From: Patescibacteria group bacterium
GTDB taxonomy: Bacteria; Patescibacteriota; Patescibacteriia; Patescibacteriales; GWC2-42-12
Assembly: GCA_041662965.1 (NCBI GenBank)
Contig: JBAZRI010000003.1
Span: 65,331 to 129,330 of the forward strand
DNA length: 64,000 nucleotides
Direction of reading: 5' to 3'
In this document: positions 3,001 to 64,000 of the stretch, in pieces
How positions within the stretch are numbered: the stretch's first letter is position 1
How the letters are laid out: each line of letters opens with the position of its first letter
Notes under the pieces: model-generated
The model's input: only the letters and a program-made list of their open reading frames with translations
Databases searched by the model: none
What the model was told of the DNA's origin: nothing
Translations under genes and position numbers: made by a program

Positions 3001-4044
3001 GTTAATAATCCGGCGGTATAAATCATTTAAGTCTGACGTGGCGAAACGTCCGCCGTCAAGCGGCACCATAGGCCTTAAATCGGGCGGTATAACCGGCACC
3101 ATATTTAAAATCATCCATTCGGGCCTTAAATTATTGGCTCTCAAGCTTTTCAATAATTTTAAACGCCTGATCATTTTATCTTTTTTTGAGTCAATCGCGG
3201 TTAAAAGCTCTTTATCTATAATGGCAATCGTTTTATCCAAATCAATTCTTTCCAAAAGTTTCCTAATGGCGCTGGCGCCGATATCGGCGGTAAAAATATG
3301 CCCGTATTTTAAGCTTAAATTTTGATAAACGCTTTCGGAAATTATGGTTAAAGGCTTTAAGTCTTTTAATTCTTTCTGCGCCTGGTCAAAAGCCTGCTCT
3401 AGATTATTAATTTTGTCATTTTTTATTTTTTCCAAAGATTCAATTTCTTGGCTTAAAATATTGGCAATCTCAAACTCGCTCTTGCCTTGAGTCAGTAATT
3501 TGCCTTTTTTATTTTTAATTTCATTAACCTGCTTTTGCCAATCATTTTCAATGGATTTTCTCTTATTCTTATATTCCTGCTTAATTTGTTCAATGGTGGC
3601 CAAGCATAATTCTTGGTTAACATCGGAAATAATAAAACTGGCGAAATAGACCACTTTTTCTAAAGCCTGCATGGGTAAATCTAAAATTAAGCCGATTTTT
3701 GAAGAAGTGCCGCGCAGAAACCAAATATGGCTTACCGGCGCTTCAAGCTTAATATGCCCCATGCGCTCGCGCCTGACCAAGCTTCTGGTTACTTCCACGC
3801 CGCACCTGTCGCAAATTATGCCTTTATAGCGGATTTTTTTATATTTGCCGCAATAGCACTCCCAATCTTTTGACGGGCCGAAAATACGCTCGCAAAACAA
3901 GCCGTCTTTTTCCGGTTTTTGCGTGCGATAATTAATGGTTTCCGGGCGGATGACTTCGCCGTGGGACCAATGTAAAATTTCTTCAGGTGAAGCTAATTTT
4001 AATTTAATGGCGTCAAAATCGGTGGTCTTTATTGGATTAAGCAT
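100..4044 (-). CDS. rpoC: DNA-directed RNA polymerase subunit beta'
   Basis: 1314-aa ORF with the catalytic NADFDGDQMAVH motif and an N-terminal Zn-finger Cys pattern (CYCGKYKK...CDRCGVEV). Lies directly downstream of rpoB. Confidence 0.97.
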   Translation of the reverse strand: MLNPIKTTDFDAIKLKLASPEEILHWSHGEVIRPETINYRTQKPEKDGLFCERIFGPSKDWECYCGKYKKIRYKGIICDRCGVEVTRSLVRRERMGHIKLEAPVSHIWFLRGTSSKIGLILDLPMQALEKVVYFASFIISDVNQELCLATIEQIKQEYKNKRKSIENDWQKQVNEIKNKKGKLLTQGKSEFEIANILSQEIESLEKIKNDKINNLEQAFDQAQKELKDLKPLTIISESVYQNLSLKYGHIFTADIGASAIRKLLERIDLDKTIAIIDKELLTAIDSKKDKMIRRLKLLKSLRANNLRPEWMILNMVPVIPPDLRPMVPLDGGRFATSDLNDLYRRIINRNNRLKQLIDLNAPEVICRNEKRMLQEAVDALIDNSIRHGKTVVASTGQKRMLKSLADSLKGKQGRFRQNLLGKRIDYSGRSVIVVNPNLNLDQCGLPKRMALELFKPFIISQLINKEIVHNVRSASRYIESGKDEVWDILEDIVKKSYVMLNRAPTLHRLGIQAFKPILIEGLAIQINPLVCTAFNADFDGDQMAVHVPLTEEAIAEARDIMLASHNLLKPATGDPVVAPNQDIVWGAFYITNIDQAYLDADEKKLKNFYSPEDAKLSYSMKNIKLQQKIRAMIDGKLIITTVGRIIFNEVLPPKLRFVNETVGKSKLKNLVKECLRFYGEQPTIDLLDSLKKASFKYITKSGLSWGMDDIPHLYEKDEMLVQASKQAEEISEQYHDGLLTDSERYSKIIELWTTVKEKVTEICRHHLPKDGPVYSMIESGARGSWAQLTQILGMKGLVTSPSGDIIELPVKGNFKQGFSVLEYFIATHGVRKGLSDTALRTSNAGYLTRRLVDVSQDVIIVKDDCGDKEGLLIIKKESEEMGENLVKRMTGRFLAADLKNAKGKVLIKAGELVTEELGEKIAKEDILEVKVRSVLTCKIHRGICAKCYGYDLAYNKKVAIGTAVGIIAAQSIGEPGTQLTMRTFHTGGVAGQEDITQGLPRVEEIFEGRPPKKKAFVADVAGKVKIETAQRTIAGEAGEMIISNPQSKILKIYYQGAESDKYYFTEAVKEASLEDKDNKKKDVKILVKDGAEVVKNSELFAIGKKVFKARKAGVVKLNEKLIKVVSDVEKVKEFIVPKGFGVWVKDGDEVKIGDQLTEGSLDLHQLYQLRGKLEAQKYIIKEIQYVYSSQGQPLNDKHIEIIARQMFARVYVNDAGDTELLPGEIVEKAIFDRTNEEVKAKDKKPAKGEELLLGITKSSLTTNSFLSAASFQETARVLIDAAVTGKVDHLEGLKENVIIGRPIPAGTGYRQKAD

Positions 4045-7912: not shown

Positions 7913-7940
7913 CCCCCTTTGAACAAAGGGGGTTAAGGGG
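7913..7940. repeat. Small GC-rich palindrome plus G-run (CCCCCTTTG-AA-CAAAGGGGG-TTAAGGGG)
   Basis: Perfect 9-bp inverted repeat followed by a GGGG tail. Same architecture as the in-ORF elements at 8777, 44541 and 54365. Confidence 0.7.
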
Positions 7941-8030
7941 ATTTTATCTTTTTGATAACAAAAAAACGGCCAGTTTATACCTTTCCATCCTGCTTGTTAC
8001 TGCTTTGACGGAGCCGTTGAGTTTTTATTC

Positions 8031-8311: not shown

Positions 8312-9742
8312 TTATTTTTCCAACTCCTTCAATTCCTCCTTCACCACCTCCCTGTCATCCCAAGGAATTTTTACGCCTTCGGGCCCGCAAATAGCCTGCT
8401 CGCAGCCTTTGCCGGTAATTAAAACCATATCGCCTTCGCCGGCCAAAGACAAAGCTTTTTTAATAGCCGCGCGCCGATCTTCAATTTTAAATAAATTTTC
8501 ATTTTCTTTTTTGCCGGCGTTTTTCGCTCCGACCGCCACCTGATCAATAATTAATTTCGGATCGTCGTCGTAAGGATCTTCGTTGGTTACGATTACTATA
8601 TCGGCTTTTTCTCCGGCCAAGGCTCCGAGCTTCGGCCGCCTAGCAACGTCGCGCCCGCCCCCGGCAGAGCCTATTACATGGATTATTTTACTATGCTCTA
8701 ATTTTAAAATAGTGCCGTATATTTTTTTTAAAGCCTCAGGCTCAAAAGCATAATCAACTATAACCGTAAAGCTTCCCCCCTCTCCTTTAAAAGGAGAGGG
8801 GCGGGGTGAGGTTATCAGCTCCAGCCTGCCGGGAATGCCATCAATTTTTTCCAAACCGATTTTTATTTTTTCCAAATCCACCCCTTGGCTAAGCCCTAAA
8901 CAAACCGCGGCCATGGCGTTAGCCGCGTTATATTCGCCCAATTGCTTTAAATTTACTACTGCCTCATCTTTTACTTTAAAACTCACGCCATTTTGGCTTG
9001 ATTCAATATTGCCATATTTTACAATCTGCGTTTTATCATCCGCCGGCTTGGCTTTTAATTCGCCTTTGGCATATTGCCACTTTTCTTCAGCCCAAAAAGA
9101 CAAAAAGAAATCAGCATATTTGTCATCGCCGTTAGCGATAATGGTTTTTTTAACCCGGTTAGACTCTATTTTCTTAAAACCATTTTCAGTTTTAACCACT
9201 CGCTTTTTATCATCGGCATATTTTGTTTTGCCTTGTTTTAAATGAAAAAATAATTTGCCTTTAGCCTGCTTATAGTTGGCAAAACTGCCGTGGGCTTCAA
9301 TATGCTCGGGATAAAGGCCGGTAAAAATTAAGATGTCGTAATTTATAAATTTGTGGCGGAATTGTTCAATGCCTTGCGAAGTGGTTTCAACGATAGCGTA
9401 TTGGCAGTTATTTTTTACCATTTGTTTTAGCATTTTTTGGGTAAAAAACCTGCCGGCCATGGTCATTTTTTTGTTATTCAGCCATTCGCTTCGGCCGTCA
9501 TTAAAAATAGCCGTTGAGGTAAAGCCGGTTTTATAGCCGGCCGAAGCCAGCATTTTAGAGATTAAATAAACGCTGGTGGTTTTACCGGTTGTGCCGGTTA
9601 CGCCGATAACGATAAGTTTATTTGACGGCCAGCCGTACCAAGCAGAAGCAATCAGGCTTAATAAAAAATGATAGGCCGGTTGTAGGGCCTTAAATAACTT
9701 TGTGGGTATATATTGTTTAATTATGTGCAGTAATTGTTCCAT
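8312..9742 (-). CDS. Mur ligase family protein (MurE-like UDP-MurNAc-peptide ligase)
   Basis: 476 aa with the P-loop GVTGTTGKTT, central and C-terminal Mur-ligase blocks (VDYAFEP), and a FemAB neighbour. Which amino acid it adds cannot be told from sequence. Confidence 0.8.
   Translation of the reverse strand: MEQLLHIIKQYIPTKLFKALQPAYHFLLSLIASAWYGWPSNKLIVIGVTGTTGKTTSVYLISKMLASAGYKTGFTSTAIFNDGRSEWLNNKKMTMAGRFFTQKMLKQMVKNNCQYAIVETTSQGIEQFRHKFINYDILIFTGLYPEHIEAHGSFANYKQAKGKLFFHLKQGKTKYADDKKRVVKTENGFKKIESNRVKKTIIANGDDKYADFFLSFWAEEKWQYAKGELKAKPADDKTQIVKYGNIESSQNGVSFKVKDEAVVNLKQLGEYNAANAMAAVCLGLSQGVDLEKIKIGLEKIDGIPGRLELITSPRPSPFKGEGGSFTVIVDYAFEPEALKKIYGTILKLEHSKIIHVIGSAGGGRDVARRPKLGALAGEKADIVIVTNEDPYDDDPKLIIDQVAVGAKNAGKKENENLFKIEDRRAAIKKALSLAGEGDMVLITGKGCEQAICGPEGVKIPWDDREVVKEELKELEK
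8777..8811. repeat. GC-rich palindromic element inserted in frame inside the Mur ligase ORF
   Basis: CCCCTCTCCTTT-A-AAAGGAGAGGGG followed by CGGGGTGAGG. Translated on the minus strand as ...TSPRPSPFKGEGGS.... Near-identical element at 44541. Confidence 0.85.
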
Positions 9743-31513: not shown

Positions 31514-31789
31514 AAAAAACCTCGTCTTCAAATAGAAAAAATTCTATTCAAGGACGAGGTTATTTAGTCTCGTGGTACCACCCTGATTCCCCAATTTTAT
31601 TATCGGAGCGCTCATTAAGCTATTTGCCCGCGGTAGCAAACCGCTCCGGCCTACTTAGGTTCAGCCGGCAATCTCCGGAAGCGCGTTCAGCATTACTGGC
31701 CTGCCGGGCTCGCACCATTACCCGGCTCGCTTAGAGGCTTAAATATTGCTTACTATTTTCCTTCAATGATTAGGTTGATTTTTAAGATC
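31514..31789 (-). promoter_or_regulatory. T-box riboswitch leader (specifier most likely CGC, Arg) with a terminator/antiterminator
   Basis: T-box sequence AATCAGGGTGGTACCACGAG (31569-31588). Stem I AG-bulge AGCGA and distal loop GGTGCGA. AGTA S-turn and GAA-CGC-G specifier loop. Terminator CCTCGTCC...GACGAGG plus T6 (31514-31559). Confidence 0.8.
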
Positions 31790-44221: not shown

Positions 44222-45262
44222 TTACTTATTAATTATATTTAATTTTAATTTTTTCCCTCTGCTTTTAGTCGCATAATAACCGGTCAGCATCGTAGCCAGT
44301 TTAATAATTTCTTCTTGGCTTTTCGAATCGCCTAATTTTAATTCGCTCATTTTCAATTCTTCAAGAACTTGAATTTCCCTTTCCATTATACTTGATACAT
44401 TATACTGTATACCTCTTAAAAGGCTCGTCGGCCCGTTTTCGTCAGCTAATTGTATTATCACGTCTCCCTTTTGCGCTAATTTTTCCAAATTTTCATTATC
44501 CTTTTCATCTCGCCCGATTACTAATAAAATATTTTTTTCTCCCTCTCCTTTATAAGGAGAGGGTTGGGGTGAGGTATCTTTAAGCCAAAACGCCCGGCCG
44601 TATTTTAATAATGCGATATCATTGCTAGCGCAATCAGGCCAATATCCAAGAATTTTAAGCAATTTTTCGCTAAATTCCGGATCGGTTAAAAGGCAGCCGC
44701 CGCCCGGGCTGGCATATTCTTTTATACCATATTTTTTTACCAGCTCTAATTGGCGCTGGCGCGATCGGCCGCTTATATCCAATAACTTCCCCCTGATTAA
44801 TTTGCCCTGTTTTTCCGGTTCGCTTATATTAAGTAATTTTGCCGACAGCGGCCTGACTAATTTGCCTTCCAACCCGGCTATTTTTTCCACTATTTTTAAA
44901 GCTTCTTTATTTTGCGACATCGGCCTTTGCCCTAAGACTTCGCCGGTCGCCACAAAATCAAATTTTTCTTTCTCCATTATCTCTTTAGCCTTTTTTAGCA
45001 TTAGGCCGTGGCAATCAACGCAAGGATTCATGTTTTTACCATAGCCATGAGCCGGATTTTTTACCATTTTTAAATGTTCATCCGAAAAATCAATTTCAAT
45101 TAATTTTATGCCTAACTCTCCGGCCGCTTTTTTAGCCCTGTCCGCGCTAAAAAAATTACTTTTAAAGCTTAATCCGGTAACTTCAACGCCTTGCTCCATT
45201 AAAACGCGCGCCGCCAGCATTGAGTCCAGCCCACCCGATAATAGCACTAGGGCTTTAGTCAT
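44222..45262 (-). CDS. PP-loop ATPase (ThiI/MnmA-like tRNA thiolation family)
   Basis: SGGLDS PP-loop. The start is set at MTKALVLL because the longer ORF translates a TGTCAT repeat (LRSLWSLAMT). Confidence 0.65.
   Translation of the reverse strand: MTKALVLLSGGLDSMLAARVLMEQGVEVTGLSFKSNFFSADRAKKAAGELGIKLIEIDFSDEHLKMVKNPAHGYGKNMNPCVDCHGLMLKKAKEIMEKEKFDFVATGEVLGQRPMSQNKEALKIVEKIAGLEGKLVRPLSAKLLNISEPEKQGKLIRGKLLDISGRSRQRQLELVKKYGIKEYASPGGGCLLTDPEFSEKLLKILGYWPDCASNDIALLKYGRAFWLKDTSPQPSPYKGEGEKNILLVIGRDEKDNENLEKLAQKGDVIIQLADENGPTSLLRGIQYNVSSIMEREIQVLEELKMSELKLGDSKSQEEIIKLATMLTGYYATKSRGKKLKLNIINK
44541..44574. repeat. GC-rich palindromic element inserted in frame inside the PP-loop ATPase ORF
   Basis: CCCTCTCCTT-TAT-AAGGAGAGGG followed by TTGGGGTGAGG. 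Translated as ...SPQPSPYKGEGEK.... Same family as 8777. Confidence 0.85.
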
Positions 45263-45271
45263 AATATTATC

Positions 45272-45360
45272 TGTCATCCCCGCCCCGTTTGTCATTGCGA
45301 GCGACCAGAGGGAGCGAAGCAATCTCATTTATTTGTCATTCCCGCACAGGCGGGAATCCA
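45272..45360. repeat. Three different TGTCAT-headed units in tandem
   Basis: TGTCATCCCCGCCCC, TGTCATTGCGAGCGACCAGAGGGAGCGAAGCAATCTC and TGTCATTCCCGCACAGGCGGGAATCCA. Confidence 0.85.

Positions 45361-61386: not shown

Positions 61387-64000
<2,614 letters not shown>

What the first reader, a model, noticed from the sequence alone, without database searches (positions are those of the whole stretch)
8777..8811. GC-rich palindromic repeat inserted in frame inside housekeeping ORFs (Mur ligase and PP-loop ATPase)
Seen:
- A ~35-nt element is present at 8777-8811 inside the Mur ligase gene: CCCCTCTCCTTT-A-AAAGGAGAGGGG-CGGGGTGAGG.
- Almost the same element is at 44541-44574 inside the PP-loop ATPase gene: CCCTCTCCTT-TAT-AAGGAGAGGG-TTGGGGTGAGG.
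- Both are in the same orientation and neither breaks the reading frame. They add SPRPSPFKGEGG and SPQPSPYKGEGE peptide loops.
- Their GC-rich, palindromic composition contrasts sharply with the surrounding AT-rich coding sequence, which argues for secondary insertion rather than ancestral sequence.

From established knowledge, in-frame invasion of ORFs by palindromic elements is known for Rickettsia palindromic elements. I am not aware of it being described for CPR-type genomes.

The hairpin could also act at the mRNA level, for example as a pause or processing site.
Basis: partly seen in the sequence, partly recalled or inferred. Interest (0 to 1): 0.6.

Follow-up and report, generated by a model that had tools for sequence, protein, structure and literature searches.

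The report
Triplex-motif repeat inside essential genes
Two essential genes of this Patescibacteria genome each carry, in frame, a 35-base copy of a small repeat (BoxC/PIT/TM_ECO) already known from many bacteria but described in E. coli only between genes; related sequences suggest it may travel with a small endonuclease gene.

Summary
Refined coordinates are 8778-8812 and 44541-44575, with zero chance matches in shuffles.

The element is not a CPR-specific palindrome. It has the three-block architecture of the BoxC / PIT / TM_ECO "intrastrand triplex motif" of E. coli (Holder 2015): C-block, loop, G-block, loop, mirror G-block. One base triad is changed on all three blocks.

Both copies are secondary, lineage-specific, in-frame additions:
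- They replace short beta-turns in MurE and in a PP-loop ATPase.
- Close relatives (80-87% identity) lack them, and so do 150 distant MurE representatives.
- The MurE insert models as a low-confidence loop.
- The blocks are nearly invariant at DNA level while the loops and flanking codons vary.

The filled state is scattered over the MurE tree, and a different variant occupies the same site.

In-frame copies also occur in HsdR, PriA, LigA, Mfd, MetRS and other genes of other phyla.

New lead: DUF559 (Vsr-like endonuclease) genes are bracketed by inverted copies, including in a CPR contig. This suggests a mobile cassette of which solo copies are remnants.

Verdict: a known element family in a context I found no report of. 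Moderate interest.

The parts
8778..8812 (-). TM-type element, copy 1 (35 nt). On the + strand: C-block 8778-8786, loop 8787-8791, G-block 8792-8800, loop 8801-8803, mirror G-block 8804-8812. Read on the - strand as T-S-P-R-P-S-P-F-K-G-E-G inside murE.
   Evidence: The architecture matches TM_ECO of PMC4666352.
44541..44575 (-). TM-type element, copy 2 (35 nt). C-block 44541-44549, loop 44550-44554, G-block 44555-44563, loop 44564-44566, mirror G-block 44567-44575. Read on the - strand as T-S-P-Q-P-S-P-Y-K-G-E-G inside the PP-loop ATPase gene.
8312..9742 (-). murE (476 aa), host of copy 1. The insert is residues 312-325, between strands 308-311 (LELI) and 326-330 (TVIVD), at the junction of the Mur_ligase_M and Mur_ligase_C domains.
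44222..45328 (-). PP-loop ATPase (ThiI/MnmA-like N-terminal domain plus NFACT-R_2), host of copy 2. The insert replaces the turn FWLK-DENDK-N.
7913..7945 (+). Third three-block motif with a different block sequence (CCCCCTTTG-AA-CAAAGGGGG-TTAA-GGGGATTTT). It is intergenic, between rpoB and murE, and is a probable variant of the same kind of element.
   Evidence: A similar variant lies in L129 at 338-355, and another inside L129 murE.

Best explanation
The two 35-nt sequences are solo copies of the BoxC / PIT / TM_ECO-type repeat. This is a three-block element: pyrimidine block, loop, complementary purine block, loop, mirror purine block. As single-stranded DNA it can fold into a hairpin, and it forms a purine-motif triplex in vitro in the E. 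coli study.

Shown:
- They entered (or replaced) short surface turns of MurE and of a PP-loop ATPase secondarily.
- They lie in a frame that contains no stop codon and encodes a Pro/Ser/Gly-rich peptide, T-S-P-x-P-S-P-x-x-G-E-G.
- The MurE copy is predicted to form a loop between two beta strands. No model was made for the PP-loop ATPase.

Inferred:
- They persist as tolerated selfish or neutral DNA rather than for a host function.
- Copies survive only at permissive loops, so the same loops are found occupied again and again across lineages.

Proposed, not shown at this locus:
- The family spreads as, or with the help of, a small cassette in which a DUF559 (Vsr-like PD-(D/E)xK endonuclease) gene is bracketed by two inverted copies.
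- Gene-less pairs and solo copies like the two here would be its non-autonomous remnants.
- Allele-to-allele gene conversion, as in homing, would explain the patchy distribution at identical sites in conserved genes.
For: Family identity:
- The blocks and spacing match the published TM_ECO pattern CCCTCNCCC-N3-6-GGGNGAGGG-N3-GGGNGAGGG. The only departure is one triad changed on all three blocks (C-G*G to T-A*T). All nine triads remain canonical for a purine-motif triplex.
- The pattern is pan-bacterial and also occurs in viral contigs.

Secondary, lineage-specific insertion:
- MurE relatives at 80-87% identity have KNAEPA where ours has TSPRPSPFKGEGGS.
- PP-loop relatives have DENDK.
- None of 150 MurE representatives at 50% identity or less has the insert.
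- PDB sequences show a gap at that position.
- Residues 315-322 have pLDDT below 50 and lie between two strands.

DNA-level rather than protein-level conservation:
- Across four MurE lineages, 1 of 27 block positions varies against 6 of 9 loop positions.
- The flanks are 60-82% identical, and roughly a quarter to a half of same-amino-acid flank codons (about 40% on average) differ synonymously.
- One lineage (P0006) keeps the length but has lost the palindrome, which argues against a required peptide or structure.

Recurrent occupation of the same site:
- The filled state is scattered over the MurE tree, with many filled/empty neighbouring tips, while the empty loop sequence is conserved.
- A different block variant in another frame sits at the same site (P0049).
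- A clean +36-nt insertion occurs in a distant clade (P0106).

Generality:
- In-frame copies occur in HsdR, an Eco57I-type methylase, UDP-galactopyranose mutase, Mfd, LigA, VgrG, YgiQ, PriA and MetRS of other phyla.

DUF559 link:
- All 7 DUF559 matches in 2.1 Mb of element-bearing loci lie within 150 nt of a copy. Most are bracketed on both sides.
- 14 of 120 DUF559 homologues begin or end in an element-encoded peptide, against 0 of 150 control proteins and 0.02 per 120 in shuffles.
- A CPR (Levybacteria) contig has copy-DUF559-copy.
- E. coli ycjD (DUF559) has TM_ECO no. 9 168 nt away.
- The E. coli 'palindromic pairs' have the same layout without the gene.
Against: - No DUF559 gene is present in the 64-kb window or in about 130 kb of close relatives, so nothing at this locus shows how the copies arrived.
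- No target-site duplication or fixed junction is visible. The net length change differs between sites (+24, +30, +36 nt).
- The orientation of the flanking copies relative to DUF559 is not uniform (L093 and L169 differ from the majority). The copies could be targets of the endonuclease gene rather than its ends.
- No MurE or PP-loop allele carrying a full cassette at these sites was found among the sequences seen.
- The NJ tree has no support values.
- Patchiness could also come from recombination between alleles unrelated to any endonuclease.
- Holder et al. found no association with mobile elements in E. coli.
- The genome-wide copy number in this organism could not be measured.
Confidence: 0.7

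Rival explanations
1. The copies arise and spread without any dedicated enzyme. Hairpin- or triplex-forming DNA stalls replication, and repair by template switching or gene conversion from other copies writes the motif into new places. Loops of conserved genes are simply where such events are tolerated.
For: - Holder et al. link the motif to local instability, deletions and rearrangements and found no transposase association.
- Junctions here are untidy, with loss of 0-12 nt of the old loop.
- Further DNA is nested inside the element in P0027, P0031 and P0040.
- There is no DUF559 near these copies.
Against: - It does not explain why nearly the same 27 block bases recur across phyla.
- It does not explain why DUF559 genes are so tightly bracketed by inverted copies.
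Confidence: 0.2
2. The insert has a host function. Either the Pro/Gly-rich loop modifies the enzymes, or the hairpin acts in the mRNA as a pause, processing or stability signal.
For: - The RNA hairpins are strong (-17 to -24 kcal/mol).
- The blocks are conserved at DNA level.
- The same loop is occupied in many lineages.
Against: - The same element sits in unrelated proteins and in intergenic DNA across bacteria.
- Closest relatives do without it.
- One lineage let it decay while keeping the length (P0006).
- Earlier work found no promoter or terminator activity for the E. coli copies.
- The model gives a low-confidence loop.
Confidence: 0.08
3. The segment is ancestral to these proteins and was lost in relatives.
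For: Many relatives share it at exactly the same position.
Against: - The empty loops (KNAEPA and NEGQN types) are conserved among themselves and with distant representatives and PDB sequences. A deletion could not recreate them.
- The element is also in an unrelated gene 36 kb away.
Confidence: 0.02

Closest known systems
BoxC / PIT (potential intrastrand triplex) / TM_ECO repeats of E. coli and other Proteobacteria (Holder et al. 2015, PMC4666352, and earlier work cited there)
   Same: - Same three blocks, same spacing (9-5-9-3-9 against 9-[3-6]-9-3-9) and nearly the same sequence.
- Loops vary more than stems.
- Dispersed copies, and no adjacent transposase.
   Different: - One triad is changed on all three blocks.
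- Here the copies lie inside essential genes and are translated, whereas the 23 E. coli K-12 copies are all intergenic.
- The host is a small AT-rich Patescibacteria genome.
- The published TM_ECO census covered Proteobacteria only.
Rickettsia palindromic elements (RPE)
   Same: Short palindromic DNA inserted in frame into conserved protein-coding genes at tolerated sites. Presence is patchy among orthologues, and there is no obvious host function.
   Different: From established knowledge, RPEs are about 100-150 bp, unrelated in sequence, confined to Rickettsia and without a mirror third block. The element here is 35 nt and belongs to a family spread over many phyla.
REP elements with their RAYT transposases; MITEs
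   Same: Small G+C-rich hairpin repeats. Proposed relation of many non-autonomous copies to a rare protein-coding partner flanked by inverted copies.
   Different: - No GTAG or CGTC head (the criterion of PMC3733652).
- RAYT genes were not searched for.
- No target-site duplication.
- The candidate partner is a DUF559 Vsr-like endonuclease, not a Y1 or DDE transposase.
Homing endonuclease genes, including the Vsr-like I-Bth0305I family (listed with DUF559 in PMC3424549)
   Same: - Sporadic presence at identical positions in highly conserved genes, next to conserved motifs.
- An endonuclease of the Vsr/DUF559 fold.
- Apparent decay to endonuclease-less remnants.
   Different: - There is no intron or intein, so the DNA is translated through.
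- No endonuclease gene is present at the two sites in this window.
- Cleavage specificity of DUF559 proteins for these sites is untested.

Membership tests
BoxC / PIT / TM_ECO triplex-motif repeats | Three consecutive blocks: pyrimidine block, loop of 3-6, complementary purine block, loop of 3, second purine block | tested here: met
   Both copies are 9-5-9-3-9 nt.
BoxC / PIT / TM_ECO triplex-motif repeats | Sequence pattern CCCTCNCCC / GGGNGAGGG / GGGNGAGGG, with one mismatched triplet allowed | tested here: met
   Ours is CCCTCTCCT / AGGAGAGGG / GGGTGAGGT. The three departures all fall in one triad, which becomes T-A*T.
BoxC / PIT / TM_ECO triplex-motif repeats | Third block mirrors the second, so that every triad is a canonical purine-motif triad | tested here: met
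   By inspection all 9 of 9 triads are G*G-C, A*A-T or T*A-T in both copies. The L129 variant keeps the mirror with different blocks.
BoxC / PIT / TM_ECO triplex-motif repeats | Actual triplex formation | not testable with these tools
   Only the hairpin could be folded. Holder et al. saw a triplex in vitro for single strands, not in duplex DNA or in vivo.
BoxC / PIT / TM_ECO triplex-motif repeats | Many dispersed copies per genome | tested here: inconclusive
   Two copies plus one variant in 64 kb. The rest of the genome was not available.
BoxC / PIT / TM_ECO triplex-motif repeats | Intergenic location (as described for E. coli K-12) | tested here: not met
   Both copies are inside ORFs. This is a described habit of the family rather than part of its definition.
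Rickettsia palindromic elements | In-frame insertion in conserved ORFs, patchy among orthologues | tested here: met
Rickettsia palindromic elements | Element of about 100-150 bp homologous to RPE consensus sequences, in Rickettsia | tested here: not met
   The element is 35 nt and the host is Patescibacteria. Sequence comparison with RPE consensus sequences was not run; RPE size is from established knowledge.
REP / RAYT | GTAG or CGTC tetranucleotide at one end of the palindrome | tested here: not met
   Neither end of either copy carries it. The criterion is from the abstract of PMC3733652.
REP / RAYT | RAYT (Y1 transposase) gene flanked by the repeats | not tested
   No profile search for PF01797 was run on the window.
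MITE | Terminal inverted repeats with target-site duplication | tested here: not met
   Filled and empty allele comparisons show no duplication. Instead 0-12 nt of the target are lost.
Homing-endonuclease-type element (DUF559 / Vsr-like) | Endonuclease gene inside the inserted DNA at this locus | tested here: not met
   tblastn with 120 DUF559 proteins found nothing in the window or in relatives' loci.
Homing-endonuclease-type element (DUF559 / Vsr-like) | Sporadic occupation of an identical site in a conserved gene | tested here: met
Homing-endonuclease-type element (DUF559 / Vsr-like) | Endonuclease cuts the empty site | not testable with these tools
   Needs biochemistry.

The most novel reading that the evidence does not exclude
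BoxC/PIT/TM_ECO repeats, whose mode of spread has stayed unexplained, are the ends and remnants of a very small pan-bacterial mobile cassette. That cassette encodes a DUF559 Vsr-like endonuclease bracketed by two inverted three-block copies. It can home into conserved protein-coding genes without an intron or intein and is simply translated through. After the endonuclease gene is lost, 35-nt in-frame scars remain, such as those in MurE and the PP-loop ATPase here.
Probability: 0.3. Interest if true: 0.8.

Novelty: new variant of a known kind. Interest (0 to 1): 0.58.

Why it matters
The repeat family has been catalogued in E. coli and many other bacteria without a known origin, mobility mechanism or function, and it was described as intergenic.

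Three results change that picture:
- The repeat is translated inside essential genes of a minimal genome, and inside helicases, ligases, restriction enzymes and tRNA synthetases of other phyla.
- Occupation of the same sites is patchy and homing-like.
- The repeat is tightly associated with DUF559 endonuclease genes.

This turns a descriptive curiosity into a testable mobile-element hypothesis and gives DUF559 proteins (including E. coli YcjD) a candidate role.

Practical consequences:
- The encoded peptides (PSPxPSP..GEG, GEGxGEG, LTPxLS, PHPxPLP) are a recurrent source of odd loops and spurious ORFs in annotation.
- They mark permissive insertion sites in enzymes such as MurE.

Tried and rejected
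- Rfam: no family covers the element. Only chance microRNA-model matches to the hairpins appeared.
I used individual contig look-ups instead.
- Search for a full DUF559 cassette inside MurE or PP-loop alleles: none among the 120 + 120 close homologues or the 150 representatives.
- CPR-specific repeat: rejected.
- Ancestral segment: rejected.
- REP/RAYT identity: rejected for lack of the GTAG/CGTC head.
- G-quadruplex reading of the G-rich strand: considered, because the strand has runs GG, GGGG, GGGG, GG. It was not pursued, because the mirror third block and its compensated triad fit the published triplex architecture better.
- Common target sequence at insertion points (ATA^AAG, ATA^AAT, GAT^GAA): too few sites to call.
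- Literature searches found no report of in-ORF copies of this family or of a DUF559 link. The library is incomplete, so this is absence of evidence only.
Full report
OBSERVATION

The pattern CCCTCTCCTT-N(1-5)-AAGGAGAGGG occurs twice in 64 kb, at 8778-8800 and 44541-44563, and the tail GGGGTGAGG occurs only at these two places. Dinucleotide-preserving shuffles gave no match.

Both copies lie in genes on the minus strand:
- MurE, 8312-9742, 476 aa (TIGR01085 311 bits; Mur_ligase_M and Mur_ligase_C).
- A 368-aa PP-loop ATPase with ThiI/MnmA-like N-terminus and an NFACT-R_2 domain, 44222-45328.

On the coding strand both read ACC TCA CCC Cnn CCC TCT CCT Tnn AAA GGA GAG GGn, giving T-S-P-[RQ]-P-S-P-[FY]-K-G-E-G. 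The hairpin is significantly more stable than shuffles. As RNA it has -23.6 and -17.1 kcal/mol. The same MurE protein is recorded from four independent sources, so the feature is not an assembly artefact.

WHAT THE ELEMENT IS

The hits came from Alpha-, Beta-, Gamma- and Deltaproteobacteria, Planctomycetota, Chloroflexota, Acidobacteriota, Bacteroidota, Verrucomicrobiota, Bifidobacterium, Omnitrophota and others. A scan of viral contigs did the same. E. coli genomes hold a median of four related places each.

A literature search on the block sequences led to Holder et al. 2015 (PMC4666352). That paper describes exactly this element as TM_ECO, earlier called BoxC or PIT. Its pattern is CCCTCNCCC-N3-6-GGGNGAGGG-N3-GGGNGAGGG. 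It has 23 copies in E. coli K-12, all intergenic, and 3610 copies in 262 proteobacterial genomes. It forms a purine-motif intrastrand triplex in vitro as a single strand. It has no promoter or terminator activity and no transposase association, and it is associated with local genomic instability. Enterobacter sp. 638 has 100 copies of the hairpin part. Rfam has no model for it.

Read as blocks, the window copies are:
- CCCTCTCCT / TTAAA / AGGAGAGGG / GCG / GGGTGAGGT (8778-8812)
- CCCTCTCCT / TTATA / AGGAGAGGG / TTG / GGGTGAGGT (44541-44575)

Compared with the E. coli consensus, the only departures are the last base of block 1, the first of block 2 and the last of block 3. These are the three members of one triad, which changes from C-G*G to T-A*T. 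All nine triads stay canonical for the purine motif.

A MurE relative (P0049, L129) carries a variant with different blocks at the same site, ACCCCCTCT-TTA-ATCTCCCCCTT-ATC-AAGGGGGAGA, and it keeps the mirror relation. A further variant (CCCCCTTTG / CAAAGGGGG / GGGGATTTT) lies in the window's rpoB-murE spacer at 7913-7945. The three-block architecture, not just the palindrome, is therefore what is conserved.

SECONDARY AND LINEAGE-SPECIFIC

MurE homologues (120 closest, 63-100% identity):
- The span from GRME to VDYA is 19-20 residues in most (loop KNAEPA or NEGQN).
- It is 28-31 residues in about twenty that carry TSP[QR]PSPxxGEG.
- At DNA level the empty allele of the closest relative (87% identity) reads ATC|AAG AAT GCA GAG CCG GCT|TTT. 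The window reads ATA|36-nt element|GGA AGC|TTT, a net +24 nt.
- In a distant clade, P0106 has a clean +36 nt with the old loop apparently retained after it.

PP-loop ATPase:
- Relatives have FWLK-DENDK-N. Ours and three others carry the element between GAT and GAA, with 3-6 nt of the old turn missing.

Wider comparison:
- None of 150 MurE representatives at 50% identity or less has the insert.
- Solved MurE structures align with a 7-9 residue gap there.
- In an AlphaFold model (mean pLDDT 85), residues 312-325 form a loop between strands 308-311 and 326-330, with pLDDT below 50 at 315-322.

DNA-LEVEL CONSERVATION AND DECAY

I compared four MurE lineages whose flanks are only 60-82% identical in nucleotides. 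In those flanks roughly a quarter to a half of same-amino-acid codons (about 40% on average) differ synonymously. Across the element, just 1 of 27 block positions varies, against 6 of 9 loop positions. So the blocks are either young or held constant as DNA, for example by conversion from other copies.

P0006 keeps the 28-residue span but has lost the palindrome through many substitutions. P0027, P0031 and P0040 have extra DNA nested inside the element. These states argue against a required peptide or structure.

RECURRENT OCCUPATION OF THE SAME SITES

On a neighbour-joining tree of the 120 MurE proteins (loop columns excluded; no support values), filled alleles are scattered. There are many filled/empty neighbouring tips, including the window protein and P0002.

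Because the empty loops are conserved among themselves, they cannot be products of deletion. The pattern needs one of the following:
- many independent gains at one position;
- transfer of a filled or an empty patch between alleles.

The flanks of the window allele match its empty sister, not other filled alleles, so any transferred patch is short. The PP-loop turn also carries many other unrelated inserts in relatives, which shows it is a permissive spot.

NOT CONFINED TO CPR

Among the 120 genomic loci, many copies lie in long open frames. Pfam confirmed real host genes:
- HsdR (GC 38%)
- an Eco57I-type methylase (Flavobacteriaceae)
- UDP-galactopyranose mutase (Muribaculaceae)
- Mfd (two inverted copies)
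- LigA (Planctomycetota)
- VgrG
- YgiQ
- PriA (Gastranaerophilales)
- MetRS (Variovorax)

Several sit a few residues from highly conserved motifs: Walker A of PriA and HsdR, EIRGE of LigA, VDYA of MurE.

A LEAD ON MOBILITY

In PriA (L093) and MetRS (L004), the in-frame insertion is a whole DUF559 domain (PF04480, E = 4e-37 and 3e-30) bracketed by two inverted copies.

Evidence for a general association:
- Searching 2.1 Mb of element-bearing loci with 120 DUF559 proteins gave seven matches. All lie within 150 nt of a copy, and most have copies on both sides. Copies plus 150 nt make up about 5% of that DNA.
- Of 120 DUF559 homologues found with the domain alone as query, 14 begin or end in an element-encoded peptide. 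The controls were 0 of 150 and 0.02 per 120 in shuffles.
- Most of these homologues sit on very short contigs, as multi-copy DNA does.
- One is from Candidatus Levybacteria. Its contig reads CCCTCTCCC-TTTGAT-GGGAGAGGG-AAAA-GGGAGAGGG, 9 nt, DUF559 ORF, CCCCTCACCCC-GA-CCCTCTCCC-TTGA-GGGAGAGGG, lying between a Fic gene and a DNA ligase gene.
- E. coli's DUF559 gene ycjD has TM_ECO no. 9 168 nt downstream.

The commonest layout is [C, loop, G, G*] gene [C*, C, loop, G]. This gives a 21-nt terminal inverted repeat. It is also the layout of the five gene-less 'palindromic pairs' of E. coli K-12. The Vsr/DUF559 clade already includes a homing endonuclease.

I therefore propose that the family is carried by, or mobilised by, such cassettes, and that the two window copies are solo remnants. 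The caveats are real:
- no DUF559 in the window or in its relatives' loci;
- non-uniform orientation in two cases;
- no full cassette seen at these two sites;
- the copies might be targets rather than ends.

VERDICT

The interpretation as an RPE-like secondary in-frame insertion is supported, but the element is a member of a known pan-bacterial family rather than a CPR novelty.

What I found no report of:
- the coding, translated context;
- the patchy re-occupation of identical sites;
- the DUF559 association.

I rate it a new variant of a known kind, of moderate interest. The cassette hypothesis is the most novel reading not excluded.

Noticed in passing
window 7913-7945 (+): A third three-block motif with different blocks (CCCCCTTTG-AA-CAAAGGGGG-TTAA-GGGGATTTT) lies in the rpoB-murE spacer. 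Similar variants occur in L129 at 338-355 and inside L129 murE at 3050-3072.
   Followed up: partly
L252 3285-3707 (Candidatus Levybacteria contig JACPGQ010000055.1): A DUF559 ORF (3330-3698) is bracketed by two inverted three-block copies, between a Fic gene and a DNA ligase gene. This is a compact cassette of about 420 nt in a CPR genome.
   Followed up: partly
L004 1307-1794 and L093 2407-2850: A whole copy-DUF559-copy cassette is read in frame inside methionyl-tRNA synthetase (Variovorax MAG, in the linker before the tRNA_bind domain) and inside PriA (Gastranaerophilales MAG, just before Walker A).
   Followed up: partly
L131 (E. coli K-12, NC_000913.3 1351204-1351760): The DUF559 gene ycjD has TM_ECO no. 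9 168 nt downstream and a partial hairpin overlapping its stop codon. The five 'palindromic pairs' of K-12 have the cassette layout without a gene.
   Followed up: partly
L027, L030, L103, L006, L046, L117, L071: In-frame copies of the same element occur inside HsdR, an Eco57I-type methylase, UDP-galactopyranose mutase, Mfd (two inverted copies), LigA, VgrG and YgiQ in other phyla.
   Followed up: partly
L127 and L128 (murE of P0027 and P0040); P0031 (protein sequence only): Extra DNA is nested inside the element itself: 24 nt (CCAGCCCGACACCGGTCTGGCGGG) within the C-block, and in P0040 a further roughly 60 nt in the hairpin loop. P0031 shows a similar nested insert in its protein sequence.
   Followed up: no
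PP-loop ATPase homologues P0149, P0154, P0162, P0167, P0181, P0183, P0200, P0207, P0222, P0235: The same beta-turn carries other, unrelated odd inserts (for example ANADLCGLMRTNAEKMC, TRMGADTGRMAAN, TRMNTNKKRIYTNHEW). These look like translations of other short repeats.
   Followed up: no
window 61387-64000 (-): The partial 23S rRNA covers 2348 model positions in 2614 nt, leaving about 266 nt extra. This may be an insertion in the rRNA gene.
   Followed up: no
window 31547-31775 (-): A T-box leader (115 bits) is present in this Patescibacteria window.
   Followed up: no
table: Most DUF559 homologues come from contigs of only 0.5-3 kb, as expected for multi-copy DNA that breaks assemblies.
   Followed up: no
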